Shown piece by piece: positions 466-22,529 of a stretch of 64,000 nucleotides of DNA. The stretch lies in the IMG/VR virus record IMGVR_UViG_3300020450_000008; one strand, given 5' to 3'. The notes beneath the pieces are model-generated. The model was not told where the DNA came from. It made no database searches and worked only from the letters and a program-made list of their open reading frames with translations. This stretch comes from a virus (Duplodnaviria > Caudoviricetes). Numbering within the stretch: position 1 is the first letter of the stretch; every line of letters starts with the position of its first letter. A program made the position numbers and the translations under genes.

Positions 466-1521
466 GTGCGTATAGAAAATGAACAAAAATTAGACTATGG
501 TAATGTTCTTATAAGACCTAAACGATCAACTGCGGGTAGTAGAAAAGAAGTTGAACTTAAAAGAAAATTTTCATTTAAATATTCAAATGTTAATGAAGAG
601 TATGATTATACTGGTATTCCTATTATAGCAAGCAATATGGATGGAGTAGGCACTTTTAAAATGGCAGATGCTTTAGCTAAACTAGGCTTGATGACTTGTT
701 TAGTAAAAACATATTCAGTAACTGATTTAGTTAATTACTATGATAATAGATTAGATGATTTTGAATTAAGAACTAATAACGTTATATATTCTATGGGAAT
801 AAGTAATAATGATTATGAAAAGTTTGAAAAGGTTTATGAACAGACTGGTAATAATATTAAGTATGTTTGTATAGACGTTGCAAATGGATATAGTGAAAGA
901 TTTTTAAACTTTTGTAAGAAATTTAGAGACACATATCCAGACTTAGTACTTATGGCTGGTAATGTAGTAACAGGTGAAATGACAGAGGAGTTAATATTAA
1001 ATGGTACAGATATTGTCAAAGTTGGGATTGGTCCGGGTTCTGTTTGCACGACACGGATTAAAACTGGTGTTGGTTACCCTCAGCTTAGTGCTGTTATTGA
1101 ATGCGCTGATGCTGCACATGGTCTTGGAGGACACATCATTGCTGATGGAGGATGTAATTCGCCAGGAGATGTTGCTAAAGCTTTTGCAGGAGGAGCTGAC
1201 TTCGTAATGCTTGGAGGAATGTTAGCAGGACATGACGAAGGTGGCGGTGTTATCAGCACTATCGAAAAGACTGTTCAATTTTATGGAATGAGTTCTGAAA
1301 CAGCAAATGAAAAACATTTTGGTGGTCTTAATGACTATAGGGCAGCCGAAGGAAAAGTTGTTGAAATTCCGTACAAAGGAAAGGTTACTAATACCGTTCA
1401 AGAAATACTTGGAGGAATCAGATCAGCTTGCACTTACACTGGAGCAATAAAATTAAAACAATTAAGTAAATGTACAACTTTTATTAGATGTCATGATACA
1501 CACAATAGAGTTTACGAATAA
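466..1521 (+). CDS. guaC: GMP reductase
   Basis: [25 protein letters not shown] catalytic Cys loop, IIADGG, DVANGY, FYGMSS; no CBS domains; GTG start after AAGGAG. Confidence 0.92.
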
Positions 1522-1539
1522 CAAAAAATATGGTATAAT
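1511..1539 (+). promoter_or_regulatory. Sigma70-like early promoter
   Basis: TTTACG-N17-TATAAT, matching the recurring TTTAC[AT]-N17-TATAAT motif. Confidence 0.6.
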
Positions 1540-1544
1540 ATATT

Positions 1545-2138
1545 ATGAAACATGCAAGAAATATAATTTATGATTTTGAAACATTATCTCAAGAGCCTAA
1601 TGGTGTAGTTACATGCTGCGCTCTTTTAATTTTTGATGAAAAGAAGTTTGACGTCAATAATGATCCATACACGTTTAAAGAACTTGTCGATTCTGCTAAA
1701 GTAATTAAACTTGATGTAGAGGATCAAGTAAAAAATTATAAGAGAATAATAACACAAGAAACTTTGGATTGGTGGAAATCACAAGGATCTGAAGCTCAGA
1801 AATGGATAACACCTTCTGACGAAGATCAAAAGATCTCTAAATTGTACGATTGGTTTTGGGAAAATAATCCTACAGATATAAAAAGCTTTTACACCAGAGG
1901 AAATACGTTTGATCCTATATTTCTTCAATCACTAATGGAAGCTACAGACAGACCAATGCCATATAATTGGTGGCAAATAAGAGATACTCGATCTTACATA
2001 GAAGGTTTAGCTTGGGGATCAGAATTAATACATGATTATATACCTCCAGGTTGCGAAGGATTTACAAAACATGATCCAAAACATGATATAGCGTTAGACG
2101 TAATGAGAATGCAAACAATAGCAAGAGCAATAGTATGA
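1545..2138 (+). CDS. dexA: DexA-like 3'-5' exonuclease (DnaQ fold)
   Basis: IIYDFETL, RGNTFDPIFL, RDTRSYI, HDPKHDIALD motifs. Confidence 0.75.
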   Translation: MKHARNIIYDFETLSQEPNGVVTCCALLIFDEKKFDVNNDPYTFKELVDSAKVIKLDVEDQVKNYKRIITQETLDWWKSQGSEAQKWITPSDEDQKISKLYDWFWENNPTDIKSFYTRGNTFDPIFLQSLMEATDRPMPYNWWQIRDTRSYIEGLAWGSELIHDYIPPGCEGFTKHDPKHDIALDVMRMQTIARAIV

Positions 2139-2887
2139 AACTAACTTTGATAGGCTATGGCTTTGTTGGAAAAGCAATGCATCATGTTTTAAACAAGTGG
2201 CATGATATTAAAATTGTAGATCCAGAATATACAATTCAAGAAATAGAAAATGATTCAGATGGATATATTGTTTGTGTACCAACACCAAGTTCGCATGATG
2301 GTTCATGTGACTTTTCAATAGTTGAAGATGTAGTAAAACAATGTCCAAAAGATAAACCAATTTTAATAAAGAGCACTATTAGTTTGGAAGGATGGAGAAA
2401 CTTACATCAGTATGAAAAGAGTTTAAATTTTAGTCCAGAATTTTTAACAGCAGCAAATTCTATATTAGATGCCGAAAGTAAAGAGCATATGTTATTAGGT
2501 GGTCCAGATGCTGATTTTTGGAGCGACGTATTTTTAATGTATAAAAAAGTCTTAGCTCCAATTGAAGAGTTGATATTAACTAAGTATATAATAAATTGTT
2601 TTCTTGCGTCAAAGGTTTCTTTCTTTAACGATATATATAAATTATGCAAAAACACCAATATTGATTATGATAAAGTATGTGAACTTGTACAGACTGATGA
2701 TAGGATAGGATCAAGTCATATGCAAGTACCAGGACCAGACGGTCAAATGGGATTTGGTGGTATGTGCTTTCCTAAAGATACAAAAGCATTAATTCATACT
2801 GGAATGCATTTTAGAAGTCCATTGACTTTGTTAAATGAAGTGGTGGCTTTAAACAATTTAGTAAGAGAAGACGATGAATCACTTTGA
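2135..2887 (+). CDS. UDP-glucose/GDP-mannose dehydrogenase family, short form without C-terminal domain
   Basis: IGYGFVG Rossmann motif, VCVPTP, IKST, SPEFL, GFGGMCFPKD catalytic Cys motif. Confidence 0.85.
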   Translation: MKLTLIGYGFVGKAMHHVLNKWHDIKIVDPEYTIQEIENDSDGYIVCVPTPSSHDGSCDFSIVEDVVKQCPKDKPILIKSTISLEGWRNLHQYEKSLNFSPEFLTAANSILDAESKEHMLLGGPDADFWSDVFLMYKKVLAPIEELILTKYIINCFLASKVSFFNDIYKLCKNTNIDYDKVCELVQTDDRIGSSHMQVPGPDGQMGFGGMCFPKDTKALIHTGMHFRSPLTLLNEVVALNNLVREDDESL

Positions 2888-6746: not shown

Positions 6747-9278
6747 ATGAAATCTTTTTATACTTCCGTAAATCGCTATGGCAATTCTATACTTTATCGT
6801 GGTTACAACGAAAATGGAGCTGCCATAGCTCAAAGATATAAATTTTCACCTACACTCTATACACCATCAAAGAAACCTACCAAGTTTAAAGGCTTTGATA
6901 GTGGATATGTTGCACCATTAAGTTTTCCAACTATGAGGGATGCTAAAGAATGGCTGGAACAATATCAAGAGATGGAAGGTGTAAATATATTTGGCACAAA
7001 AAATTATATACATCAGTTTATTACAGAAAAATTTCCTGATAAAATAGACTTTGAGCCAAATGCTATCAATGTTGTTAACTTCGATATAGAAGTTGCATCT
7101 GATTCTGGATTTCCAGTTCCGGAACAAGCGGCATATCCAATCACAGCAATCACAGTTAAATCAAGTCAATCTTCAGTATATCAAGTCTGGGGTTGTGGCG
7201 AATACAGCTCAGAAAAATGTGAAATAGAACTATATGGAAATCTGATTCAATATCACAAGTGTAAGAATGAAACAGAATTACTTGCTAAGTTTCTTGGTTA
7301 TTGGATAAAAAATTATCCTGATGTTATAACAGGTTGGAATACTCGATTCTTTGATATTCCATACATTGTAAATCGTATAAAAAATGTTGGTGGTGAAGCA
7401 GCTGCTAATAGATTATCTCCTTGGAAATTAGTAAGTGAAAGAAACCTAATGATTGGCGGCCGTATGAATTATGGCTATGACATAACTGGCATTCAACAAG
7501 CAGACTATTTAGAATTATTTAGAAAGTTTGGATATTCATATGGTCCACAAGAATCATATCGTCTTGATCATATCGGTCATGTTGTACTTGGTGAACGCAA
7601 ACTTTCTTTTGAAGAACATGGTAGCTTATTAAATCTGTATAAAAATGATCATCAAAAATTTATTGATTATAATATTAAAGATGTTCAATTAGTAGATCGA
7701 ATCGATCAGAAGATGGGACTTATTAATCTAGTATTTACTATGGCTTATAGAGCTGGTGTTAATGTTACAGATACATTTGGCACTACAGCAATATGGGAAT
7801 CAATCATTTATCGTAGATTACAGAAAAATAATATCATAAGCCCTATTGATCAAATTAAAAAAGTCATTTATCAAAATAAATCAAATGCAAATGTTATTGA
7901 AGGTGGCTATGTTAAGGAACCTCAAGTTGGTGCACATGACTGGGTGGTATCATTTGATCTAAACTCTCTATATCCAAACATAATAGTTCAGTCTAATATA
8001 TCACCCGAAACTTTAATTAAAGATAAATCATTCGGTCATTACGAACAAGATGTCCAACACTATCTTAACAGTAAAGATAAAACGTCAAAAGAATATTCTA
8101 TATGTGCAAGTGGTGTTCCTTTCTCTCATGAAAAACAAGGTATCATACCAGAGTTAATTGTTGAATATTATGCAGAACGTACACAAATTAAAAAGAAAAT
8201 GTTAGAAGCTAAATCTGCATATGAAAAAGAAAAGTCTCGCCAACTTGAAGCAGAAATTAATCAACTTGAAAATAATCAAATGGCCATCAAGATCTTATTG
8301 AACTCTCTTTATGGCGCATTGGCCAATAAGTACTTTAAGTATTTTGATAATGCTCTTGCCGAAAGTGTTACACTTACTGGTCAGCTTTCGATTAAATGGG
8401 CAGAAAAAGCTATCAATCAAGAGATGAATAAAGTTCTTAAGACTGGTAATAAAGACTATGTTATAGCAATCGATACCGATTCTTTATACATTAACTTTGG
8501 TCCACTTGTGCAAAAGCTAAATCCAAAAGATCCAGTTGCGGCTATTGATAAACTATGCCAAACACATTTTGAAAAGAAACTTGCTGAGGCTTATGATAAA
8601 CTATTTAATAACTTAAATGGTTATACACCTAGAATGGAAATGGGTAGGGAGGTTATTGCTGATCGTGGAATCTGGACAGCTAAGAAAAGATATATTCTTA
8701 ACGTACATAACTCAGAAGGCGTACAATATGCTGAACCTAAACTTAAGATTATGGGTATTGAAGCTATCAAATCTTCTACACCAGAAGTTGTTCGTAATAA
8801 ATTTAAAGAGGCATTCAAGATTATAGTGTCAGGTGATGAGTTAAAAACTCGTCAGTTTATTAATGATTTTAAAGAAGAGTTTAAACTACTTTCTCCAGAG
8901 ATGGTATCATTTCCAAGAAGTGTACAAAATGTCGGTAAGTGGAAAGATAGAATACACATTTATTCTAAAGGTACTCCAATTCATGTTCGTGGCGCGCTTT
9001 TATATAATCATCATGTATCAGATCTTTTCCTCGATAAAAAATATTCTCAAATCAGCTCAGGCGATAAGATAAAATTTTCTTATCTCAGATTACCAAATCC
9101 TATCAAAGAAAATGTTATATCGTTTCCTGACTTCTTACCACAAGAATTCAAGCTTCATAAATATATCGATTATGATACTCAATTTGATAAAACATTTATC
9201 GAGCCACTCAATCCAATACTTGAAGCGGTTGGGTGGTCAGTAAAAGAACAAGCAACCTTAGAGGAGTTTTTTGGATGA
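6747..9278 (+). CDS. gp43: Family B DNA polymerase, uninterrupted
   Basis: Exo I FDIEV, SFDLNSLYP, KILLNSLYGA, IDTDS; C-terminal clamp-binding-like TLEEFFG. Confidence 0.97.
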   Translation: MKSFYTSVNRYGNSILYRGYNENGAAIAQRYKFSPTLYTPSKKPTKFKGFDSGYVAPLSFPTMRDAKEWLEQYQEMEGVNIFGTKNYIHQFITEKFPDKIDFEPNAINVVNFDIEVASDSGFPVPEQAAYPITAITVKSSQSSVYQVWGCGEYSSEKCEIELYGNLIQYHKCKNETELLAKFLGYWIKNYPDVITGWNTRFFDIPYIVNRIKNVGGEAAANRLSPWKLVSERNLMIGGRMNYGYDITGIQQADYLELFRKFGYSYGPQESYRLDHIGHVVLGERKLSFEEHGSLLNLYKNDHQKFIDYNIKDVQLVDRIDQKMGLINLVFTMAYRAGVNVTDTFGTTAIWESIIYRRLQKNNIISPIDQIKKVIYQNKSNANVIEGGYVKEPQVGAHDWVVSFDLNSLYPNIIVQSNISPETLIKDKSFGHYEQDVQHYLNSKDKTSKEYSICASGVPFSHEKQGIIPELIVEYYAERTQIKKKMLEAKSAYEKEKSRQLEAEINQLENNQMAIKILLNSLYGALANKYFKYFDNALAESVTLTGQLSIKWAEKAINQEMNKVLKTGNKDYVIAIDTDSLYINFGPLVQKLNPKDPVAAIDKLCQTHFEKKLAEAYDKLFNNLNGYTPRMEMGREVIADRGIWTAKKRYILNVHNSEGVQYAEPKLKIMGIEAIKSSTPEVVRNKFKEAFKIIVSGDELKTRQFINDFKEEFKLLSPEMVSFPRSVQNVGKWKDRIHIYSKGTPIHVRGALLYNHHVSDLFLDKKYSQISSGDKIKFSYLRLPNPIKENVISFPDFLPQEFKLHKYIDYDTQFDKTFIEPLNPILEAVGWSVKEQATLEEFFG

Positions 9279-10006
9279 CAAATTATGTTTTCGATGTGGA
9301 TGGAACACTTACACGTAGTAGGGGAAGAATAAATGAAGGATTTAGAAGATTCTTCTTAAAATTTATTCAAGATCATAAAGTATATCTTGTTACTGGAAGT
9401 GACTACTATAAGACAGTAGAACAAGTTAGTCGTGAGGTCACTGAATCAGTTGAAAAGGTATTTAATTGTTCTGGGAATAGTGTTTGGAGAAAAGGTTTAA
9501 ATATTCAAAAAACGGATTGGAGTATTCCTATGGAAGTAAAGGACTGGCTTAAAAAGAAACTTAATGAAAGTAAGTTTGATTTAAGAACTGGAAATCATAT
9601 AGAAGAGCGACCAGGACTTGTAAACTTTAGTACCATAGGTAGAGGCTGCAACTTAGAACAAAGACAATCGTATGTAAAGTTTGATAGCATACATGAAGAA
9701 AGAGAAAAGATTACAAAAGAATTTAATGATAAATTTAAAGATATTACTGCTCAGGTTGCTGGAGAAACTGGGATAGATATTATACCAGCTGGAAAAGATA
9801 AAAGACAAGTAGCATTTATGATTGATGGACCTATAACATTTTTTGGTGATAAAATGAAATATGGAGGAAATGATTATCCATTGAAATTTGCCATAGAAGG
9901 TCGTGCTGATTCAGGTGCTATAGAAGTTAAAGATTGGGAACAAACGCATAGATACTTACAACAAATACAAATTTTCAGTTTACAAGAAGCTGTCGGTATG
10001 GTATAA
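9275..10006 (+). CDS. HAD-family phosphomannomutase-like protein (start at ATG 9275)
   Basis: FDVDGTLT, LVTGSD, HIEERPGLVNFS, FFGDKMKYGGNDYPL; ATGA overlap with gp43. Confidence 0.8.
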   Translation: MTNYVFDVDGTLTRSRGRINEGFRRFFLKFIQDHKVYLVTGSDYYKTVEQVSREVTESVEKVFNCSGNSVWRKGLNIQKTDWSIPMEVKDWLKKKLNESKFDLRTGNHIEERPGLVNFSTIGRGCNLEQRQSYVKFDSIHEEREKITKEFNDKFKDITAQVAGETGIDIIPAGKDKRQVAFMIDGPITFFGDKMKYGGNDYPLKFAIEGRADSGAIEVKDWEQTHRYLQQIQIFSLQEAVGMV

Positions 10007-11772: not shown

Positions 11773-12005
11773 TGGCCGGAGCAATCAATACACCTTTAAG
11801 ACAACTTATTATGGATTGGAGTGCATGCCAATTGTTAGAGAAAGATCCTGATAATATTGTTCTTAAAAAACTTAGATCTTGGGAGCATCCTGAAACAATA
11901 GAACTAAATAAACTATTAACACAATTTGAAAAAGATGGAAAATATCCAGAACACTATAATTTAGACTGGGGTTCAATTAATTATGAAGAGTTTATAAAAG
12001 AATGA
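11772..12005 (+). CDS. Hypothetical protein
   Basis: Coupled ORF in operon. Confidence 0.5.
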   Translation: MAGAINTPLRQLIMDWSACQLLEKDPDNIVLKKLRSWEHPETIELNKLLTQFEKDGKYPEHYNLDWGSINYEEFIKE

Positions 12006-12349
12006 AAGCTGGAAAGATATGGGGTCAAACAGAACTAATCCATGCAAATGGTGTTCTAGAGTTTCATCGCATTGAATATAAAAAAGGCTTTAAATGTTCA
12101 GAGCATGAACATCAATTTAAATGGAATGGATTCTATGTTGAGTCCGGACAAATGCTTGTAAGAGTCTGGCAAGACGATCAAGAAGGATTAGTTGATGAAA
12201 CTATATTAAATCCTGGAGACTTTACGCAAGTGAAACCTGGCAAGATTCATCAGTTCGAAGGACTTGAAGATGGAATTGCATTTGAACTTTATTGGGCTGA
12301 ATTCAATCACAACGATATAGTTCGAAGAACTGTAGGAACAAAAGTATGA
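12002..12349 (+). CDS. Cupin (sugar isomerase-like)
   Basis: KIWG, CSEHEHQFKWNGFYVESG, PGKIHQF. Confidence 0.8.
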   Translation: MKAGKIWGQTELIHANGVLEFHRIEYKKGFKCSEHEHQFKWNGFYVESGQMLVRVWQDDQEGLVDETILNPGDFTQVKPGKIHQFEGLEDGIAFELYWAEFNHNDIVRRTVGTKV

Positions 12350-12537
12350 TATATGGTTGGATATTGATAATGATAACTCTACATCCTGATGGATCATTAG
12401 ACGGTGGAGCAATAGATTATTTTAACACTTACCCAGAGTGTTTTGAAGTAATGAAAGAAATGTCGGTTACAGGTCAAGGAACAGGTTATACCTGTGTAGA
12501 TGACTATGTAGATATGAGTGGAGATATAGAACAGTGA
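12346..12537 (+). CDS. Small hypothetical protein
   Basis: Coupled ORF with two Cys. Confidence 0.45.
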   Translation: MIYGWILIMITLHPDGSLDGGAIDYFNTYPECFEVMKEMSVTGQGTGYTCVDDYVDMSGDIEQ

Positions 12538-12950
12538 GAATTGGATTTACCTGCAGTACCTTTGATTTACTTCATGCAGGCCATGTCATGATGTTAAGAG
12601 AAGCGAAAGCCCAATGTGATTATTTAATATGCGGACTGCAGGTAGATCCAAGTATAGACAGGCCAGAAAAGAATTCTCCTATACAATCTATTGTAGAAAG
12701 AGAAGCTCAATTATCAGCAATAAAATATGTTGATGAGGTGATTATTTATTGTACAGAAGATGATTTATGTGATATAATTAATATGTACCCAATTGATATT
12801 AGAATATTAGGCGAAGAGTATAGAGATAGAGACTTTACTGGTAAAGATGAATGTAAGAAAAGAGGTATTCAACTTTATTTCAATAAAAGAGAACATAGGT
12901 TTAGTACTTCAGATTTAAGGAAAAGAGTGTGCGAAAAGACGACATTATAG
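12534..12950 (+). CDS. Glycerol-3-phosphate cytidylyltransferase (TagD)-like nucleotidyltransferase
   Basis: GFTCSTFDLLHAGH (HxGH), YLICGL, LGEEY, STS motif. Confidence 0.88.
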   Translation: MRIGFTCSTFDLLHAGHVMMLREAKAQCDYLICGLQVDPSIDRPEKNSPIQSIVEREAQLSAIKYVDEVIIYCTEDDLCDIINMYPIDIRILGEEYRDRDFTGKDECKKRGIQLYFNKREHRFSTSDLRKRVCEKTTL

Positions 12951-13138
12951 ATCTAGGCATAGACTTAGGCGAACCAGACTTTACAACTAAAAATGATAGG
13001 CCAGGATTTATTAGTAGCAGTGGTTGGCCAGTTCGTAGAGAAATAACAAAGTTAAATGACAATATGAAAATTATGGTCAAGCAAATGAGTAAATTAAAAA
13101 AACAAATAAGTAAACTAGAGAAGAAACTAAATGGATAA
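12929..13138 (+). CDS. Hypothetical protein
   Basis: Coupled ORF with coiled-coil C-terminus. Confidence 0.45.
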   Translation: MRKDDIIDLGIDLGEPDFTTKNDRPGFISSSGWPVRREITKLNDNMKIMVKQMSKLKKQISKLEKKLNG

Positions 13139-13838
13139 TATTGTGGAAAATTTAACATGGGCAAAAGTAAAACATATTCGTCAGCATTTTAGAGATGAAT
13201 TAAACAAAGAAGTATTTACTATTGATAAAACTGGTCAAAAGACTATTGAAATGATTGGTGCATCTTTTGTTGCTGATGAATCAGCAATATTTGGTACTCC
13301 TAATCGAGAATATATTGATGCAGAAATAGATTGGTACAATAGTAGATCTACAAATATAAATGAAATATTTGGAATCACAAAAGCACCACCACAAGCTTGG
13401 CAATATTCAGCTAATAAGTTTGGTGAGATCAACTCTAATTATGGCCACTTAATCTTTAGTGAAAAATTTTATAATCAATATTTACATGTTGTAGAAGAAT
13501 TAATAAATAATCCTGATAGTCGTAGAGCCGCAATGATTTACAATCGTCCTTCAATATGGCTTGAATATAATGAAGACGGTAAGAATGATTTTATCTGTAC
13601 TAATGCTGTTACATACTATATACGTAATAGAAGATTAGATGCTGTAGTTCAAATGAGATCTAACGATGTGGTATATGGCTATAAAAATGATTATGCCTGG
13701 CAACAATACGTTATGAAACAACTTATTGAAGATATAAATGTTCAAAGACCCGATGATGATCAAGTCTTTAAAGGTTTTATGCATTGGCAGGTTCAAAACT
13801 TACATGTGTATGAAAGGCACTTTGATTTAGTACAATGA
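13131..13838 (+). CDS. gp42: dCMP hydroxymethylase (thymidylate synthase fold)
   Basis: Collinear with T4 gp42: DKTG.KTIE.IGASFVADE, GEINSNYG, NPDSRR, DF.CTN, MRSNDVV.G.KNDYAWQ, LHVYERHF. Confidence 0.9.
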   Translation: MDNIVENLTWAKVKHIRQHFRDELNKEVFTIDKTGQKTIEMIGASFVADESAIFGTPNREYIDAEIDWYNSRSTNINEIFGITKAPPQAWQYSANKFGEINSNYGHLIFSEKFYNQYLHVVEELINNPDSRRAAMIYNRPSIWLEYNEDGKNDFICTNAVTYYIRNRRLDAVVQMRSNDVVYGYKNDYAWQQYVMKQLIEDINVQRPDDDQVFKGFMHWQVQNLHVYERHFDLVQ

Positions 13839-14383
13839 GTCAATTATTTAAAGATCCAAAAAAACCAGCATTATTTGCAGATATGAATGATCCTGTTCTT
13901 AACGCGACATATAAAACAATGAATATTATTGGAGTCGATCCTGAAAAGAAATGGGATGTAAGATATATTGAACTAGCCTACAAAGTAAGTGAATGGTCAA
14001 AAGATCCATCAACAAAGATAGGATGTGTGGTTGTAGGAAATAAGGGACAGGTATTGACTCAAGGATACAACGGTTTTCCTCGTGGTATTGATGACTCAAA
14101 TGAAAGACTTACAGATAGAGAAACTAAATTGAAATACGTTGTTCATGGAGAAATGAACGCGATATATAATGCTTGTTATAATGGAATATCTCTTGAAGGA
14201 AGTACCATGTATGTTACTGGTCTTCCAACATGCTCTGATTGCGCCAAGGGTGTAATACAAGTAGGTGTTAAAAGAGTTGTCTGGCCTAAAGAACTTGAAA
14301 ATGTTGAAGACAGATGGAAAGAATCTGTTAAATTAACTATGTCTATGTTCGATGAAGCTGGAGTAGAGTATGAGTTCATCTAA
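13835..14383 (+). CDS. cd: dCMP deaminase
   Basis: SKDPSTKIG, GYNGFPRG, HGEMNAI, PTCSDC zinc ligands. Confidence 0.9.
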   Translation: MSQLFKDPKKPALFADMNDPVLNATYKTMNIIGVDPEKKWDVRYIELAYKVSEWSKDPSTKIGCVVVGNKGQVLTQGYNGFPRGIDDSNERLTDRETKLKYVVHGEMNAIYNACYNGISLEGSTMYVTGLPTCSDCAKGVIQVGVKRVVWPKELENVEDRWKESVKLTMSMFDEAGVEYEFI

Positions 14384-15287
14384 TGCTCAAACAAATTTAA
14401 GTCGACTTAAATTAGCAGCAGATAAACCTAAAACTGTTGTAGCTTCTGATTGGAAAAGGTATTATAGTCGGTATGTTGACAGGGCTTTCGCAAGAACAAT
14501 CAATATTGATACATCTACACGTTGCTTGATGCAATGTCCTTTTTGCTCTCGCCAAAATTTTGCAACTGGTAAACTGCACATCAAAACAAATAGAACGTTT
14601 TATGGAGATTTAACTCCAGAAAATGCTTTACAAATGGCTGATGCATTTGATCGTATAAGTTTTTGTGGTCAAATATCAGATCCAATATTTCATAAAAATT
14701 TATTCTCTATATTTGAAGCCTTAGATCAAGGTGCTGCTATTAGAACACTTGAGTTTCATACAGTTGCCTCTGGAAAAAAAATGGCTTGGTGGGAAAGAGT
14801 TTTCTCATATATGGAGAATGCAAAATATAAAACTGATTTTATCATAGGTATTGATGGAATTGATCAGAAAACAGCTTCTCATAGAATAGGACAAAACTTT
14901 GAAGAAGCATGGGAAGTCTTACGATATTTTGCTGATAATAAAAGAGATAATATAGATATCACCTGGCAGTTCATACCCTTTTTATATAATGAAGATGAAG
15001 TGTTAACTGCGGCAGAAACTGCTGTTTCATTAGGGATAAATTTATTACTTCTCAAATCATCTCGTCACGTTGGAGAGTATAAGACAAATACTGGAGATAA
15101 AAAATATGCTATAGGAGCTGATTTATACACTCAAGAAGAATTTGAAAAAAAATTTCAAGGTCATTTACCATTAGCTCCAACGAAATCATTTTTAAAATCA
15201 AATAATGGTATAACAAGTTTTAATGATGGATATATAAAAACAAAGGAAGATATAAAAGAATTAGAAAGAGTTTTAAATGAATCCTAA
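14370..15287 (+). CDS. Radical SAM protein
   Basis: CLMQCPFC (CxxxCxxC), FCGQISDP, IGIDG. Confidence 0.8.
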   Translation: MSSSNAQTNLSRLKLAADKPKTVVASDWKRYYSRYVDRAFARTINIDTSTRCLMQCPFCSRQNFATGKLHIKTNRTFYGDLTPENALQMADAFDRISFCGQISDPIFHKNLFSIFEALDQGAAIRTLEFHTVASGKKMAWWERVFSYMENAKYKTDFIIGIDGIDQKTASHRIGQNFEEAWEVLRYFADNKRDNIDITWQFIPFLYNEDEVLTAAETAVSLGINLLLLKSSRHVGEYKTNTGDKKYAIGADLYTQEEFEKKFQGHLPLAPTKSFLKSNNGITSFNDGYIKTKEDIKELERVLNES

Positions 15288-15858
15288 ACCTATTAGTTTT
15301 GAAATTGATCCAGTGTGTGTACCATTTGATAAAAATGGAGAAGAAAGAGAACAACAAAATTGCGTAGCCTTCGGTTCTCATGGTTGGTACATGCCATGCT
15401 GTTGGTGTGATCAGTTTCAAGATACTCGAAATAATTATATGGATATGTATTCTAAACATTTACATGCTTCAACTGGAATTACACCAAGAGAAGTCCTTGA
15501 ATCTCCAGAATGGCAAAATTTCTTTAAAGTTATTTTTGAAGACCCACAAAACTCTTCTCATGTTTGTCAAAAATATTGTGGTGTCATAAATTATGATGAT
15601 GGTACAAAAAGAAATGTCGTAGGATTTACTGATCAAGAAAGAAGAGATATGGGAAAAGATCTTGAATTTATCAAATTTTTTGAAGAAAATATGGAGAGCA
15701 ATAATAGTTACCAGTACTGGTGGGATTTTGTTCAAGATTATAGTGGTTGGTCAGCAAGAATGAAATCAAAAGCGTGGTTTAGATTTGGATATACAGGGAT
15801 AGGTAGGCTCGCAAAAATTAAAAGACTAGAGGATAATTTAAATGCAGCCAATGTCTGA
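15277..15858 (+). CDS. Stand-alone SPASM/Twitch-like Fe-S domain protein
   Basis: C...G..MPCCWCD...CQKYCG pattern, immediately after the radical SAM gene. Confidence 0.55.
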   Translation: MNPKPISFEIDPVCVPFDKNGEEREQQNCVAFGSHGWYMPCCWCDQFQDTRNNYMDMYSKHLHASTGITPREVLESPEWQNFFKVIFEDPQNSSHVCQKYCGVINYDDGTKRNVVGFTDQERRDMGKDLEFIKFFEENMESNNSYQYWWDFVQDYSGWSARMKSKAWFRFGYTGIGRLAKIKRLEDNLNAANV

Positions 15859-16640: not shown

Positions 16641-17936
16641 ATGTCAAAAATTAAAGTCGGCATTGTCGGTGTCGGAAACTGTGCTAAGTCTCTCGTCGAG
16701 GGAATTCAATACTACAACTCAAATCCAGAAGATAAAGTAGGACTTATGTATGATGATATTGGTGGTTATACAACTACTGATATAGAATTCGTAGTCGGTT
16801 TTGATGTAGATCGTCGTAAAGTAAATCGTCCATTAACAGAAGCTTTAAGAGCCGCTCCAAACTGCGCTATGGATCATGTTGGAGAAATATTAGAAGTCGG
16901 TGCAAACACTCCAGGCTGTGTAGCTTCAGGAGCTATGGTATATTCTGGACCAGAACTAGATGGTATCGCACCATGGATGCTTGAATATCCTAAAGAAGTT
17001 TCATTTAGAACTGGAGCTGAAGCGGCAAAATCTTATGATGATATTGTAGACATAATTAAAAAGACTAAAGTTGATGTTCTGATTAATTATTTACCAGTTG
17101 GTACAGAAAAAGGGTCTAGATTTTATATGGATGCTGCATTAGACGCTGGTGTTCATTTTGTTAATTGTATTCCAACTCTTATATCAACTAAAGAAACTAT
17201 GGAGATAGAACAAAAGTTTATCAACAAAGGATTGACTATTGTTGGATCTGATATGAGATCCGCTTGGGGAGCTTCAAGAATGTCAGAAGTACTTCAAGGT
17301 GCTATGATAGATTCAGGACTAATGGTTACACAACATATACAGATGAATATGGCCGCTGGTTCTACTCAAGGTCAAGAAAATATACGAACAGGTAGAACAG
17401 CTAATACTGATTTTCTTAACATGGCAGAAAAATCTCGATTGCATAATAAACATGTATCAAAAGAAAATGTTTTGAAAGGTCAAAATATAGTACGTAATGA
17501 ACCTACAGCAGGTGCAACACTTTATGCTGGTCCATCTCTTACAGTATTTCAAAAGCCAGGTGGACAATATGTAGGTAGTGATAATAAAATAGCTAACTTC
17601 GATATTGTTGCTTATGGTTTTGGTGGGGCTAGATATGAAATGTCAGCTAGATTATCAGTACAAGACTCTCCAAACTCTGGTGGTGTTGTAGTATCTGCAA
17701 TCAGGTTCTGCAAAGTTGCATCTGAAATGAGCATTGTTGGTTATCTTAGAGGTCCATCAGCATGGACTCAAAAAACTCCTCCACTTCAGTTATCTACATC
17801 TGATTCAAAATTTGAATGTGATGCTTTGGCAAGACGTACTCTTACAAAATTAACTGAAGCTCAATTAAAAGTAAATAAACCAAAAGCAAAAAGTCTACCA
17901 TATACATTCCAAGCTGGAGAAACAGATTATGAGTAG
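16641..17936 (+). CDS. ino1: Myo-inositol-1-phosphate synthase
   Basis: VGIVGVGNCAKSLVEG, VLINYLPVG, FVNCIP, TANTDFLNM, DSPNSGGVV. Confidence 0.9.
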   Translation: MSKIKVGIVGVGNCAKSLVEGIQYYNSNPEDKVGLMYDDIGGYTTTDIEFVVGFDVDRRKVNRPLTEALRAAPNCAMDHVGEILEVGANTPGCVASGAMVYSGPELDGIAPWMLEYPKEVSFRTGAEAAKSYDDIVDIIKKTKVDVLINYLPVGTEKGSRFYMDAALDAGVHFVNCIPTLISTKETMEIEQKFINKGLTIVGSDMRSAWGASRMSEVLQGAMIDSGLMVTQHIQMNMAAGSTQGQENIRTGRTANTDFLNMAEKSRLHNKHVSKENVLKGQNIVRNEPTAGATLYAGPSLTVFQKPGGQYVGSDNKIANFDIVAYGFGGARYEMSARLSVQDSPNSGGVVVSAIRFCKVASEMSIVGYLRGPSAWTQKTPPLQLSTSDSKFECDALARRTLTKLTEAQLKVNKPKAKSLPYTFQAGETDYE

Positions 17937-18333
17937 AGAACCTTTTGAGCCTTGGAAAAACATTCCTCAAAAGACTATAAATTCATATGATATCGATGGC
18001 GTTATATACATGGGTGACTATGATGGATTAAGGCCAGGACCTGATGATATCGTAATTACTGGTAGATCTATTTGTACCGAAGAAGAAACTAAAAAAATGC
18101 TTCTTAAAAAAGGTATAACTAATCCTTTATACATGAATTTTAAAGACAAAGACTATAATAATAGAGAACAATCTGGATTTCATAAAGGTTGGACTTTATT
18201 TCATCTTGAGCAGCTGGGGTATCATATTGGAATCCATTATGATGATGATATGATTCAAATCGAAAAGATAAATGAAATGATGCCGCATATTCATTGCGTT
18301 CATGTAAAACACGAACTTGTACCAAAGGAGTAA
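17929..18333 (+). CDS. Small HAD-family phosphatase
   Basis: YDIDGVI motif I, ITGRS motif II, K, YDDD motif IV. Confidence 0.75.
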   Translation: MSREPFEPWKNIPQKTINSYDIDGVIYMGDYDGLRPGPDDIVITGRSICTEEETKKMLLKKGITNPLYMNFKDKDYNNREQSGFHKGWTLFHLEQLGYHIGIHYDDDMIQIEKINEMMPHIHCVHVKHELVPKE

Positions 18334-18335
18334 AC

Positions 18336-19406
18336 ATGTACAACTATGATTGGTGGTCTTACGATAAAGACATAATGAAAGATTTTAATCATTTCTTAAA
18401 AAAGATTAATACTCGAGCATGTATCAATTATGGTTTTATTGATGAGGAATATGAAAACTTAAATAGGCATGGAGACTTAGATCATGGTCTTGGTCGTAAT
18501 GTAGAATATTTCCACCCTACAATTACTTTAGATGATAGAATGAGATATATTGGTACAGTCATTGCGCAGCATGATATGTCTGATTTTAGTATTTTAGGCA
18601 ATGGTATAATATCTCACTTTTATGGAGCACGTGGCGTTCATATGGCAGTTACAGGATCTAACGATCCTAATGACTGTTTTGTTGATTTTGACAAATTAGC
18701 TGATAATGATAAAGATTACCTACAGCATCTTAGAAATAATATAGATAATTCTAGAAAGTTAAAAAAACCAATATGGGGTACAACAGAACTTCATACATCA
18801 ATACAAGCAGCTTCTAGAAATTATTGTAGACAAAAATATGATGACGCTGAAAGAGCATTCCATCCTGTTGACGTAGTTGATTGGGTTGCATCATTTAGAA
18901 ATAATGGAACATATGAAGAACTCTTTGCCGCAGATCATATTGGAGAAGCTTATAAAATATTAAGAAAGTTACCAGGTATTGGAGAATATTACGGATTTCA
19001 TGGTGCTGCATCAACTAGTGTTTTACCTCAAATGAAATATTATCATGATGATAAATTTGTAGCTCCAGGACCTGGTGCAGTATATACAATAGGACTTATG
19101 TGGCCAAAGGCTCCAAAAAAATATTATGCAGAAGCAATTTACTTCTTAAGAGAAAACAGCGATGAGATTGGTCTTACAGAAGATGTTAGTTTTCATCCAG
19201 GCGCTTATAACATCGATATGCCAGGTGGAAAAAAGCTTTTTAGAGAAGATCAAAAAACTCTTAAATATTATGGTACTGAAGTTTTATCTTGTCAGTTTGG
19301 TATATACTTACAGATTAGAGAAGATGCTAAGCTATGTGCAAAACGTCAGGTATCAAGAGCTACAGTACTTGAAGATCAAAATACGTTAGAAAGTTTTATG
19401 CAATGA
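18336..19406 (+). CDS. aGPT-Pplase / amino acid:DNA transferase-like (HhH-fold) DNA hypermodification protein
   Basis: LRKLPGIG HhH-like motif followed by YYGFH...DDKFVAPGPGA; AAGGAG SD before ATG 18336. Confidence 0.55.
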   Translation: MYNYDWWSYDKDIMKDFNHFLKKINTRACINYGFIDEEYENLNRHGDLDHGLGRNVEYFHPTITLDDRMRYIGTVIAQHDMSDFSILGNGIISHFYGARGVHMAVTGSNDPNDCFVDFDKLADNDKDYLQHLRNNIDNSRKLKKPIWGTTELHTSIQAASRNYCRQKYDDAERAFHPVDVVDWVASFRNNGTYEELFAADHIGEAYKILRKLPGIGEYYGFHGAASTSVLPQMKYYHDDKFVAPGPGAVYTIGLMWPKAPKKYYAEAIYFLRENSDEIGLTEDVSFHPGAYNIDMPGGKKLFREDQKTLKYYGTEVLSCQFGIYLQIREDAKLCAKRQVSRATVLEDQNTLESFMQ

Positions 19407-20389
19407 AAGCAATATTAAACTGTCCATTTATTCCAGTAGCAAAAAGAATAGCTTCTCACAGAGGAGCTCAAGGCGTTATGTATGGCGATATGATAAAACA
19501 AAAGTATGGTCATTGTGATGTCAACTTTGGTGGCGAGATTATAGATCATAATCAGTATGATACGATGTGGGTATATCATGGAAATGATTTTAGTGGTGGA
19601 TTAAATATGTTTGGTGGCGTTTATGGTTTTCCTTATGTAGAAAATACAGTAAACTTTTCTAAGTTTAAAGGTAAAATAAAATCAATAGCCATTGACTTTC
19701 CGCCATATCATGAATGGATAAAAGATAAATTAGATAAAGCTAAGAAAGACGTACAGCCTGAATGGGCCAGTGTAGATTTAAATAATCTTGAAAGAATGTA
19801 TAATGAAGCTGAAACGGTTGATTATCCAAATATGACCGACAAATTAGTCATAGGTGATTCACATTCGATATGCATGTATAGACCGGGTTGGACCGTCAAT
19901 AGCATACCATTTAAAACTTTAAATGGAGCTTTAAAAGAAGGTATTAAAACATTCATACCAAAAGGAAGTTTCAATCAAATAGAATTGTACTTTGGCAATA
20001 TTGATATAAGACATCATGTGTGTAGGCTAAATGCTGATATAGAAGAATTGGCTGATAGATATATTGAACAAGCAAAAGAATTGAATGCTAAAATATATGA
20101 ACTATTGCCAATAGAAAATGAATCACGCAAGTTACCACAATCTGGATATTATAAAGGCGAACCTTTCTGGGGTACATGGCAAGAAAGAACAGATGCAAGA
20201 AATAAATTTAATGATTACATTGAAAGCAAATATGGAATCATACGTTGGACGGATAAATTACTAAATAAAACTGGTGAACTTGATTTTGCATGTATGGAAA
20301 AACCAAAGTCAATACATTTAAGTAGAGAGTTCTATCCTCACTGGAACGGAGAGGAAGAGGTAAATACATTAGAGGAGTTTTTCGGATGA
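19403..20389 (+). CDS. Hypothetical protein with SGNH-like GDSH motif
   Basis: VIGDSHS, YFGNIDIRHH, SIHL; ends TLEEFFG. Confidence 0.5.
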   Translation: MKAILNCPFIPVAKRIASHRGAQGVMYGDMIKQKYGHCDVNFGGEIIDHNQYDTMWVYHGNDFSGGLNMFGGVYGFPYVENTVNFSKFKGKIKSIAIDFPPYHEWIKDKLDKAKKDVQPEWASVDLNNLERMYNEAETVDYPNMTDKLVIGDSHSICMYRPGWTVNSIPFKTLNGALKEGIKTFIPKGSFNQIELYFGNIDIRHHVCRLNADIEELADRYIEQAKELNAKIYELLPIENESRKLPQSGYYKGEPFWGTWQERTDARNKFNDYIESKYGIIRWTDKLLNKTGELDFACMEKPKSIHLSREFYPHWNGEEEVNTLEEFFG

Positions 20390-21582
20390 GCTTTGCAAGT
20401 ATAGTGCCACTCATAGGTGGTGAAACAATAGCAATGCAAAATGTATCAGGTAAAAAACCAGAATACATATTAAGCTATTCAGCGTTTGAAGCAAATGATA
20501 ACCAATTAGTTGAATACTATGATAACAAAGTACCATACTATCATTTAGATGGTAATATGCCAAAAAGTTTACCAACTGTAGAGTCTGTCAATACTGTTTG
20601 TCCTTGTGCTGGATTAAGCAGTCTTTCTCCAGTTGCTGGTACAAATAATAGTAATAATGATTGGATGAGTAAAACAGCTAAACATGTTTTAGAACATATC
20701 AATCCTAAAGTGTTTTGGGGAGAAAACGCTCCAAGACTTGCAAGTAAAATGGGTGAGCCTATAGTTAAAAATCTTAGAAAAATTGGAAGTGACAATGGAT
20801 ACACATTTTCAATATATAAAACAAAATCAATATTACATGGATTAAGTCAGGTAAGAGATAGAACCTTCTATTTCTTTTGGAAAGGAGATAAGATTCCACG
20901 CTTACCTTATATTCACAGAAATTACGAGCGTATTGAAGATACCATTAGAAATACAAAGCTTAAAAAAGATGATCCAATGAATATTCCAGTAAATAGTAAG
21001 GCTCCTACAGATAATCCTTTTTATAAGTATGTACTAGAGGAGATAGAAGGTGGTATAACACATTCAGAATTTCAAGAAAAAATAGAGCGTAGTACCAATC
21101 CTTTAGAAGAAATAGAGAGAGCCGGTATAAAATATCGTACTGTAGGCGAGTGGATGACTAAAAAAGGCTATGATAGAGAAGCAGAAAAGTGTAAAAGAAT
21201 GCATGATAAATTAGCATCAGGTGGTAACATAATGCGTAAAACTACTGAAATACCAAAAGATTATATTGGAGCTTTTGTTGGTCATATGCCAACATCACTA
21301 ACACATCCTGATGAAGATAGGTATCTTACAGTAAGAGAATGTTTATCAATCATGAAATTACCTGATGATTTTATGTTACAAGGTGGTCTTAAAAATCTTA
21401 ATCATATTTGCCAAAACGTTCCTGTGACTACGGCAGAAGATATGGCCACTAGTGTTCATGCTTTTGTAGAGGGAAGGCTTGATAACCAGATGATTGATAC
21501 AAAATTTTTAGTACAAGATAACAAAAATAAGTCATTGGATTATCAAAGAGAAAGCATGCAACTAGATGAGTTTATGGTATAG
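20386..21582 (+). CDS. Atypical C5-cytosine DNA methyltransferase-fold protein
   Basis: Motif IV CPCAGLS, VI ENAP, VIII QVRDRTF, IX RYLTVRECLSIM; motif I degenerate (VPLIGG) and motif X degenerate (CQNVP). Confidence 0.7.
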   Translation: MSFASIVPLIGGETIAMQNVSGKKPEYILSYSAFEANDNQLVEYYDNKVPYYHLDGNMPKSLPTVESVNTVCPCAGLSSLSPVAGTNNSNNDWMSKTAKHVLEHINPKVFWGENAPRLASKMGEPIVKNLRKIGSDNGYTFSIYKTKSILHGLSQVRDRTFYFFWKGDKIPRLPYIHRNYERIEDTIRNTKLKKDDPMNIPVNSKAPTDNPFYKYVLEEIEGGITHSEFQEKIERSTNPLEEIERAGIKYRTVGEWMTKKGYDREAEKCKRMHDKLASGGNIMRKTTEIPKDYIGAFVGHMPTSLTHPDEDRYLTVRECLSIMKLPDDFMLQGGLKNLNHICQNVPVTTAEDMATSVHAFVEGRLDNQMIDTKFLVQDNKNKSLDYQRESMQLDEFMV

Positions 21583-21590
21583 GAGATAAA

Positions 21591-22529
21591 ATGAAAATAT
21601 TAATAACAGGACAAGCTGGATTTATAGGTTTCCATGCCGCTATTGGATTTAAAAATGATGGTTGGGAAGTACATGGTATTGATAACTTCAATGATTATTA
21701 TGATGTAAAACTGAAAAGAGATAGAGCTACTATTCTTCAAGATTTAGGAATTTCTACTATTGATGATACCATTGAAAATTTTAATAAAATAGATTTTCCA
21801 GAATATGATTTAATACTACATTTAGCCGCTTATACAAATCCCAGACACGCTTTAAAAACTCAACAACCTTATATTGATACTAATATTACAGCAACTCAAA
21901 GAATAATTGATGTAGCACAAGATAAAGGAACACCAGTTGTATACGCTTCAAGCAGTTGCGTCATGCTAGGACAACCACTTCCTTGGAATGAAACCGATAG
22001 ACCACAACATCAAAACAATCCTTATGGTTGGTCAAAGCATGTCAATGAATGCCAATTTAAACACTCAACTGTTGTAAGATCTGCTGGATTGAGATTCTTT
22101 ACGGTTTATGGTCCTTATGGAAGACCTGATATGGCACTGTTTTCTTTTACAAGATCGATAGTAAAAGATGAAGGAATAGTTTTATATAACTACGGCGATA
22201 TGAAAAGAGACTTTACTTACGTAGATGATATTATCCAAGGTATAAAAATAGTTGCAAACAAACTTATGAAAGATGAAGAAAACTATCATGAGATATATAA
22301 TATTGGGTATGGTGATCAAGTAGAGTTAATTGACTTCGTTGATCATATTGAAAAGAATCTTGGTAGAAAGACCGAAAGAAAATTAGAACCAATGCATCCT
22401 GCAGATGCAAAAGAAACTTGGTCAGATACTACAAAGCTTCAAGCACTTGGATATAAACCAACAACTCCTGTACAAATAGGAGTTGCTAAATTCGTTGAAT
22501 GGTATAAACAATATTATAATGTAAATTAA
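21591..22529 (+). CDS. NAD-dependent sugar epimerase (UDP-glucuronate 4-epimerase/WcaG-like)
   Basis: ITGQAGFIG, ASSS, YGWSK (YxxxK), RFFTVYGPYGRPDMA, RDFTYVDD. Confidence 0.9.
   Translation: MKILITGQAGFIGFHAAIGFKNDGWEVHGIDNFNDYYDVKLKRDRATILQDLGISTIDDTIENFNKIDFPEYDLILHLAAYTNPRHALKTQQPYIDTNITATQRIIDVAQDKGTPVVYASSSCVMLGQPLPWNETDRPQHQNNPYGWSKHVNECQFKHSTVVRSAGLRFFTVYGPYGRPDMALFSFTRSIVKDEGIVLYNYGDMKRDFTYVDDIIQGIKIVANKLMKDEENYHEIYNIGYGDQVELIDFVDHIEKNLGRKTERKLEPMHPADAKETWSDTTKLQALGYKPTTPVQIGVAKFVEWYKQYYNVN

What the first reader, a model, noticed from the sequence alone, without database searches (positions are those of the whole stretch)
18336..19406. ADDT/aGPT-Pplase-like protein paired with a cytosine rather than uracil hydroxymethylase
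Seen: an HhH-like LPGIG motif and FVAPGPGA. Known: characterised amino acid:DNA transferases act on 5-hmU after a 5-hmdU DNA kinase activates it. Seen: no such kinase is recognisable in the window, and the neighbour is gp42-like. Inference: different activation chemistry, with an NDP-activated donor in place of base pyrophosphorylation.
Basis: partly seen in the sequence, partly recalled or inferred. Interest (0 to 1): 0.65.

Follow-up and report, generated by a model that had tools for sequence, protein, structure and literature searches.

The report
Phage inositol-to-hydroxymethylcytosine DNA transferase candidate
A T4-like phage gene shaped like the enzymes that hang amino acids on modified thymine sits instead in a cytosine-modifying genome, almost always beside two genes that make free inositol and an unstudied esterase-fold partner, so it probably builds an inositol-bearing cytosine that has not been described chemically.

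Summary
Observation confirmed. 18336-19406 encodes a 356-aa HhH-fold aGPT-Pplase clade-1-like protein (PF18723, not the ADDT clade 2) with the catalytic ExxxC spacing invariant. The thymidylate-synthase homologue nearby is a dCMP hydroxymethylase (53% to T4 gp42; D143/D169/D177). No known 5-hmdU kinase or dUMP hydroxymethylase was found in the window or in three complete genomes carrying homologues. The conserved unit in about 140 redundant loci is inositol-phosphate synthase + HAD phosphatase + this gene + a partner (19403-20389) that joins a T4 beta-glucosyltransferase acceptor-like domain to an intact SGNH domain. Partner and target are fused in both orders. Sister phages keep the partner but swap in two other aGPT-like genes and a PLP enzyme. 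Best model: the partner activates hmC in DNA (acylation likeliest) in the kinase's place, and this protein swaps in free myo-inositol. Nothing is shown biochemically; no clade-1 protein has a demonstrated activity in the papers read. The scan reached similar readings on other genomes (e1-5353249, e1-5358831). No paper found.

The parts
18336..19406 (+). Target: aGPT-Pplase clade-1-like HhH-fold protein, 356 aa; candidate inositol:hmC-DNA transferase
18969..18983 (+). HhH hairpin LPGIG (residues 212-216)
   Evidence: G214/G216 invariant in A1
19056..19079 (+). FVAPGPGA motif (241-248), aligned with the clade-1 GPG motif
19278..19292 (+). E315-x-x-x-C319, same spacing as catalytic E243/C247 of PaMx11 gp46
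   Evidence: invariant in A1, >=95% of 80 sampled homologues; PMC11472151
16641..17936 (+). myo-inositol-phosphate synthase (MIPS)
   Evidence: PF01658, TIGR03450 E 1e-59; linked in 138/139 loci with enough flank
17929..18333 (+). Small HAD phosphatase with intact DxD, T, K and DD motifs; inferred inositol-phosphate phosphatase
19403..20389 (+). Partner: T4 beta-glucosyltransferase N-domain-like part (aa 1-98) plus SGNH domain (aa 140-315; S153, G175, N199, H305); candidate activator of hmC in DNA
   Evidence: hhalign prob 97.3, E 2e-11; VIA Z about 12 to SGNH esterases; fusions with the target
13131..13838 (+). dCMP hydroxymethylase (gp42-like; D143/D169/D177)
   Evidence: residue rules from PMC13326640
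13835..14383 (+). dCMP deaminase (nucleotide pool; conserved only in close relatives)
20386..21582 (+). C5-methyltransferase-like gene; accessory, lost in most distant loci
   Evidence: 27/28 close, 7/47 distant
12534..12950 (+). TagD-like cytidylyltransferase; not a conserved part of the unit
21591..22529 (+). NAD-dependent sugar epimerase; not a conserved part of the unit

Best explanation
A post-replicative cytosine hypermodification that reuses the thymidine-hypermodification chemistry. (1) gp42-like enzyme makes hm-dCMP, so the genome carries 5-hydroxymethylcytosine (inferred strongly from 53% identity to T4 gp42 and diagnostic residues). (2) MIPS and the HAD phosphatase make free myo-inositol from glucose-6-phosphate (family knowledge; the HAD substrate is inferred). 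(3) The partner grips and flips hmC with its glucosyltransferase-like N-domain and uses its SGNH serine to put a leaving group on the hydroxymethyl oxygen, most likely an acyl group, in place of the phosphate added by 5-hmdU kinases (inferred; donor unknown). (4) The target's C319 attacks C6, the leaving group departs to give an exocyclic methylene, and an inositol hydroxyl adds to give an inositol-methylcytosine ether (by analogy with clade-2 enzymes; not shown for clade 1 or for cytosine). My odds: about 0.65 that the target attaches inositol or a derivative to hmC in DNA; about 0.5 for the whole chain with the partner as activator.
For: HhH/aGPT fold and invariant ExxxC. MIPS upstream in 59/59 close and 79/80 distant loci, HAD in 59/59 and 75/80, partner in 28/28 and 45/47, across several gene orders and genome types. 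Every thymidylate-synthase homologue read in these loci is D143/D169/D177, apart from ordinary ThyA. No PF18748, PF18747 or PF18724 match in complete genomes G006, G010 and 44RR2.8t, while M6 and RP13 controls ring. Fusions in both orders: partner-target in Aeromonas 44RR/31 and FkbM-target-partner in P0243. Sister phages keep gp42 and partner but replace MIPS-HAD-target by two aGPT-like genes and a PLP enzyme, a ViI/M6-like set without the kinase. Ralstonia phage RP13 pairs MIPS+HAD with a clade-1 protein, an HMUD2 kinase and a dUMP-type hydroxymethylase, and lacks the partner. The 19 Aeromonas records with the fusion lack MIPS but carry a sodium/sugar symporter next to it.
Against: All evidence is genomic or predicted; no modified base has been seen. 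M6 gp55, a clade-1 protein, was dispensable for glycine transfer (PMC8989533). Partner homologues also occur with no aGPT gene detected: Aeromonas phage 25 (with UDP-galactopyranose mutase and a glycosyltransferase-like gene) and PTm1, whose synthase has the 5-hydroxycytosine signature, where no methylene leaving group can form. The residue matching BGT D100 is D/E/P in the family. The closest bacterial relatives of the Aeromonas symporter lie in galactoside/fucoside loci, not inositol operons. Loci are redundant and related, so counts overstate independence. Pfam misses divergent members (one search missed the swapped aGPT-like genes), so a divergent kinase is not excluded.
Confidence: 0.5

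Rival explanations
1. The target attaches inositol to hmC directly or after activation by an unrecognised kinase, and the partner is a tailoring acyltransferase/esterase acting on base or sugar/inositol hydroxyls.
For: Partner occurs with a glycosyltransferase-like gene and UDP-Galf mutase in Aeromonas phage 25 and in a 5-hydroxycytosine-signature phage, PTm1. Methyltransferases lie in or are fused into some cassettes, so tailoring does occur. Identity of the target to the window tracks HAD (rho 0.48) and MIPS (0.35) but not the partner (-0.22).
Against: No kinase family found in three complete genomes. The partner keeps the BGT-like hmC-acceptor domain and is retained through donor-cassette swaps. 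RP13 has a kinase and no partner.
Confidence: 0.2
2. One reading: an NDP-activated donor (CDP-inositol or UDP-sugar) is attacked by the hmC hydroxyl, glycosyltransferase-style.
For: The window has a cytidylyltransferase, epimerase, PMM-like and UDP-glucose dehydrogenase-like genes. A PF01467 gene occurs somewhere in 4 of 5 genomes and next to the target in L098-L101. Host NDP-sugars could serve.
Against: Cytidylyltransferase linked in only 0/28 and 3/47 loci, epimerase in 4/28 and 4/47; none in complete 44RR2.8t; no IPCT-family hit over cut-off; the HAD would remove the phosphate that CDP-inositol synthesis needs (pathway knowledge); the target has no glycosyltransferase fold and keeps the Cys of the C6-attack mechanism.
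Confidence: 0.1
3. The target is not the transferase: like M6 gp55 it is an accessory clade-1 protein (binder, repair or glycosylase-like enzyme for the modified base); the partner does the chemistry with inositol, or inositol serves another purpose such as an osmolyte or lipid.
For: Clade 1 has no shown activity in the papers read. The top structural match, queuine-salvage hydrolase QNG1, ties with PUGT. MIPS+HAD occur in Menderaviruses beside deazaguanine genes with no PF18723 hit. One bacterial homologue (L182) stands without the cassette.
Against: It is the only aGPT-family gene detected in complete genomes; ExxxC is invariant; it is swapped together with the donor genes, as a donor-specific enzyme would be.
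Confidence: 0.2

Closest known systems
Amino acid:DNA transferases, aGPT-Pplase clade 2 (PF18724): M6 gp51, ViI gp247, PhiW-14 gp109, PaMx11 gp46/PUGT (PDB 8Z2M); PMC8989533, PMC11472151
   Same: HhH-glycosylase-like fold (Z 8.8), ExxxC motif, place in a hydroxymethylpyrimidine cluster; ViI gp247 already forms an ether with a hydroxyl nucleophile (serine).
   Different: 9% identity and no PF18724 hit; base is hmC, not hmU; no 5-hmdU kinase; donor genes make inositol, not an amino acid.
aGPT-Pplase clade 1 / HMUDK_hel (PF18723): M6 gp55, SP10 gp186 helical domain, RP13 ORF120
   Same: Pfam above cut-off; profile match over 291 columns, prob 99.6; GPG and ExxxC motifs.
   Different: A separate subfamily (profile E-values jump from about 1e-27 to 1e-10 for full-length proteins) that is tied to dCMP hydroxymethylase, MIPS, HAD and the BGT-N/SGNH partner instead of a kinase and a clade-2 paralogue.
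T-even glucosyl-hmC (gp42 + alpha/beta-glucosyltransferase), and arabinosyl-5-hydroxycytosine phages (PMC13326640)
   Same: dCMP hydroxymethylase of T4 type; the partner's N-domain resembles the BGT acceptor domain.
   Different: No complete GT-B transferase in the unit; the UDP-glucose-binding half is replaced by an SGNH domain; D169 excludes the 5-hydroxycytosine synthase signature; predicted product is an ether to a cyclitol, not a glycoside.

Membership tests
aGPT-Pplase clade 1 (PF18723) | HMM score above gathering cut-off | tested here: met
   36.7 vs 25 bits
aGPT-Pplase clade 1 (PF18723) | Full-length homology and HhH-glycosylase-like fold | tested here: met
   hhalign prob 99.6 over 291 columns; BFVD and PDB matches
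aGPT-Pplase superfamily | Conserved Glu and Cys (ExxxC) | tested here: met
   E315/C319 invariant; spacing as PUGT E243/C247
ADDT / clade 2 (PF18724) | HMM match | tested here: not met
   No hit at E<=0.1; control M6 gp51 scores 159.6 bits
Thymidine hypermodification system (M6/ViI/PhiW-14) | dUMP hydroxymethylase (N177) | tested here: not met
   Window and related loci are D177; whole genome of this phage not held
Thymidine hypermodification system (M6/ViI/PhiW-14) | 5-hmdU DNA kinase (PF18748/PF18747) | tested here: not met
   None in window or in complete G006, G010, 44RR2.8t; controls M6 and RP13 positive; divergent kinases could be missed
Amino acid:DNA transferase activity | Group transfer to an activated hydroxymethylpyrimidine in DNA | not testable with these tools
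   needs biochemistry
dCMP hydroxymethylase (13131-13838) | D143, catalytic Cys, D169, D177 | tested here: met
   rules from PMC13326640
5-hydroxy-dCMP synthase | D169N | tested here: not met
   D169 in window and linked loci
SGNH hydrolase/acyltransferase (partner) | Fold and S, G, N, H catalytic residues | tested here: met
   Z about 12; S153, H305 in 35/35, G175 32/35, N199 34/35; canonical DxxH acid absent, E299 may serve
T4 beta-glucosyltransferase (partner) | Both GT-B domains including the UDP-glucose domain | tested here: not met
   Only residues 1-98 align; the C-domain is SGNH

The most novel reading that the evidence does not exclude
A kinase-free cytosine hypermodification platform: a BGT-acceptor/SGNH enzyme activates hmC in DNA by acylation, and interchangeable aGPT-family transferases then install free inositol, other polyols or amino-acid-derived groups, giving a whole series of non-glycosidic hypermodified cytosines in abundant aquatic T4-like phages and in cultured Aeromonas phages 44RR2.8t and 31.
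Probability: 0.4. Interest if true: 0.88.

Novelty: new variant of a known kind. Interest (0 to 1): 0.72.

Why it matters
The cytosine hypermodifications in the papers read are glycosides made by glycosyltransferases from NDP-sugars, while thiolate/methylene substitution is known only on thymidine after a kinase step. This unit would join the two: a new base (inositol-methylcytosine), a first activity for clade-1 aGPT-Pplases and an SGNH enzyme acting on DNA. It also offers an answer to an old gap: Aeromonas phages 44RR and 31 have gene 42 but no glucosyltransferase (PMC2993671). Both are cultured, so the claim is directly testable. The predicted nucleoside (419 Da) has the same nominal mass as hexosyl-hmdC, so it could have been misread as glucosylation.

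Tried and rejected
No whole genome is held for the window, so absence claims rest on the window and relatives. Iyer et al. 2013 could not be read, so I could not check whether it noted the inositol link. Foldseek PDB gave no match at E<=0.001; VIA supplied the fold. Complex prediction of target and partner gave no answer, which is not evidence either way. The role of BGT F72 (flipping) and D100 (base) is my own knowledge; a paper search did not find it. Symporter context did not show inositol specificity. hhalign of the swapped gene 'c' with the target or clade-1 profiles was not significant; its assignment rests on Atlas features (0.97) and an ExxxC-like motif, and gene 'a' on the motif alone. 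Rejected: ADDT membership; 5-hydroxycytosine pathway; the Dcm-like gene, cytidylyltransferase and epimerase as core parts. Five paper searches found no inositol-modified phage DNA; most subscription papers are not searched.

Full report
Setting. The window is part of a T4-like phage genome (DNA polymerase, UvsX, gp41 helicase, ThyX). No whole genome is held.

The gene. 18336-19406 is a 356-aa ORF with a ribosome-binding site and 322 database homologues. Pfam places it in PF18723, the aGPT-Pplase clade 1 family, above cut-off and gives no ADDT hit. A profile of the family aligns with canonical clade-1 proteins over 291 columns (prob 99.6). The confident model (pLDDT 92) matches clade-1 viral proteins and, among solved structures, the HhH-glycosylase fold, including the glycine:DNA transferase PUGT (Z 8.8, tied with QNG1 at 9.1). 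E315 and C319 are invariant and have the spacing of PUGT E243/C247, where the Cys attacks C6 of the base (PMC11472151). Caveat: the shown transferases are clade 2; M6 gp55 is clade 1 and was dispensable (PMC8989533).

The base. 13131-13838 is 53% identical to T4 gp42. By the residue rules of PMC13326640 it is a dCMP hydroxymethylase: D143, D177 and D169, not the D169N of 5-hydroxycytosine synthases. The same signature holds in all 62 non-ThyA matches of the close set, and in the distant lineages read. Kinase families PF18748 and PF18747 and clade-2 ADDT were not found in three complete genomes that carry the target (G006, G010, Aeromonas 44RR2.8t), while controls M6 and RP13 rang. The window has no recognisable kinase either.

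The conserved unit. Across about 170 fetched loci (redundant, but down to 35-45% identity and in several gene orders), MIPS lies upstream in 59/59 close and 79/80 distant loci, the HAD phosphatase in 59/59 and 75/80, and the partner (19403-20389) within 4 kb-flanked loci in 28/28 and 45/47. The cytidylyltransferase (0/28, 3/47), epimerase (4/28, 4/47) and Dcm-like gene (27/28, 7/47) are not core. The HAD has intact motifs. MIPS plus a phosphatase yields free myo-inositol, which fits a free nucleophile as used by clade-2 enzymes and not an NDP-donor. PF01467 genes do occur elsewhere in most of these genomes, so the NDP route is unlikely rather than excluded.

The partner. Residues 140-315 form an SGNH domain (Z about 12) with S153, G175, N199 and H305 conserved. 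Residues 1-98 align with the N-terminal acceptor domain of T4 beta-glucosyltransferase (prob 97.3, E 2e-11; shuffled controls at most 2.1), including NxFGG. From my own knowledge this BGT region flips hmC. Partner and target are fused partner-first in Aeromonas 44RR/31 and target-first behind an FkbM methyltransferase in P0243.

Natural swaps. (a) Sister phages (L238, L240, L243, L244) keep gp42 and the partner but replace MIPS-HAD-target with two genes bearing ExxxC-like motifs, one scored 0.97 to HMUDK_hel/ADDT clusters by Atlas features, and a PLP enzyme related to M6 gp52. This is an M6/ViI-like set with the partner where the kinase would be. (b) RP13 has MIPS+HAD, a clade-1 protein, an HMUD2 kinase and a dUMP-type hydroxymethylase, and no partner: the thymidine counterpart. 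Caulobacter phage Cr30 has MIPS+HAD beside an ADDT gene. (c) The 19 Aeromonas records with the fusion lack MIPS and carry a sodium/sugar symporter; the partner-only Aeromonas group has neither target nor symporter. This is one evolutionary event, and the symporter's substrate is unresolved. (d) Against a universal activator role: phage 25 has the partner with UDP-galactopyranose mutase and a glycosyltransferase-like gene, and PTm1 has it with a 5-hydroxycytosine-type synthase.

Mechanism. Shown here: fold, motifs, hydroxymethylase type, co-occurrence, fusions, swaps. Inferred: hmC in DNA; inositol supply; activation of the hydroxymethyl by the partner (acylation likeliest, donor unknown); Cys-mediated methylene formation and addition of inositol by the target. 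The product would be 257+180-18 = 419 Da, the same nominal mass as hexosyl-hmdC (419 in 10.1101/2023.12.21.572611). Likely purpose, by analogy: protection from restriction and CRISPR nucleases.

Novelty. It works like an amino acid:DNA transferase and is a clade-1 aGPT-Pplase member, but it is not an ADDT and not part of a thymidine system. No paper on inositol-modified phage DNA was found; Iyer 2013 was unavailable. Earlier notes of this scan on other genomes gave the same reading. I had the cassette and the partner's architecture from my own calls (71, 93) before seeing their text, and they are not independent evidence. Verdict: real and likely new variant; interest 0.72; best model 0.5.

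Noticed in passing
L240:4645-7785, L238:3674-7975, L243, L244: Swapped cassette in hmC phages: two aGPT-like genes and a PLP enzyme beside the BGT-N/SGNH partner, no kinase found; suggests an amino-acid-derived cytosine hypermodification.
   Followed up: partly
L082 (Ralstonia phage RP13) 5915-15535: Clade-1 aGPT gene, MIPS, HAD and HMUD2 kinase, with a dUMP-type hydroxymethylase elsewhere: candidate inositol-thymidine in a cultured phage.
   Followed up: partly
L084 (Caulobacter phage Cr30) 7732-12257: ADDT, TET-associated glycosyltransferase-like gene, MIPS and HAD in a row.
   Followed up: no
L085 (Aeromonas phage 25) 2776-6047: UDP-galactopyranose mutase, glycosyltransferase-like gene and partner occupy the slot where 44RR has symporter and fusion; suggests galactofuranosyl-hmC.
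   Followed up: partly
L283 / L086 (Tenacibaculum phage PTm1): Thymidylate-synthase homologue with the D169N 5-hydroxycytosine signature, and a divergent partner gene beside ribonucleotide reductase.
   Followed up: no
L083 (Stenotrophomonas phage Mendera) 9098-14624: MIPS and HAD embedded among FolE/QueC/QueE deazaguanine genes, with no PF18723 or thymidylate-synthase hit; inositol may serve another modification.
   Followed up: no
P0242, P0243, P0277; L094:8680-9444: FkbM or other SAM methyltransferases fused to the target or placed inside the cassette; possible O-methylated inositol. L186 uses TGA as Trp.
   Followed up: no
L182:9953-10984 (Crocinitomix algicola): Only clear homologue found without the cassette, in a bacterial contig.
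   Followed up: partly
window 20386-21582: C5-methyltransferase-like gene (PC and EN motifs, atypical motif I) in a phage predicted to carry hmC; substrate unclear.
   Followed up: no
window 14370-15858: Radical-SAM-like gene and a Cys-rich neighbour inserted between dCMP deaminase and the UDG-like gene; absent from the related loci mapped.
   Followed up: no
window 466-2887, 9233-10006, 12002-12950, 21591-22529: IMPDH/GMP reductase-like, UDP-glucose dehydrogenase-like, phosphomannomutase-like, cupin, cytidylyltransferase and epimerase genes: auxiliary sugar and nucleotide genes not tied to the cassette.
   Followed up: partly
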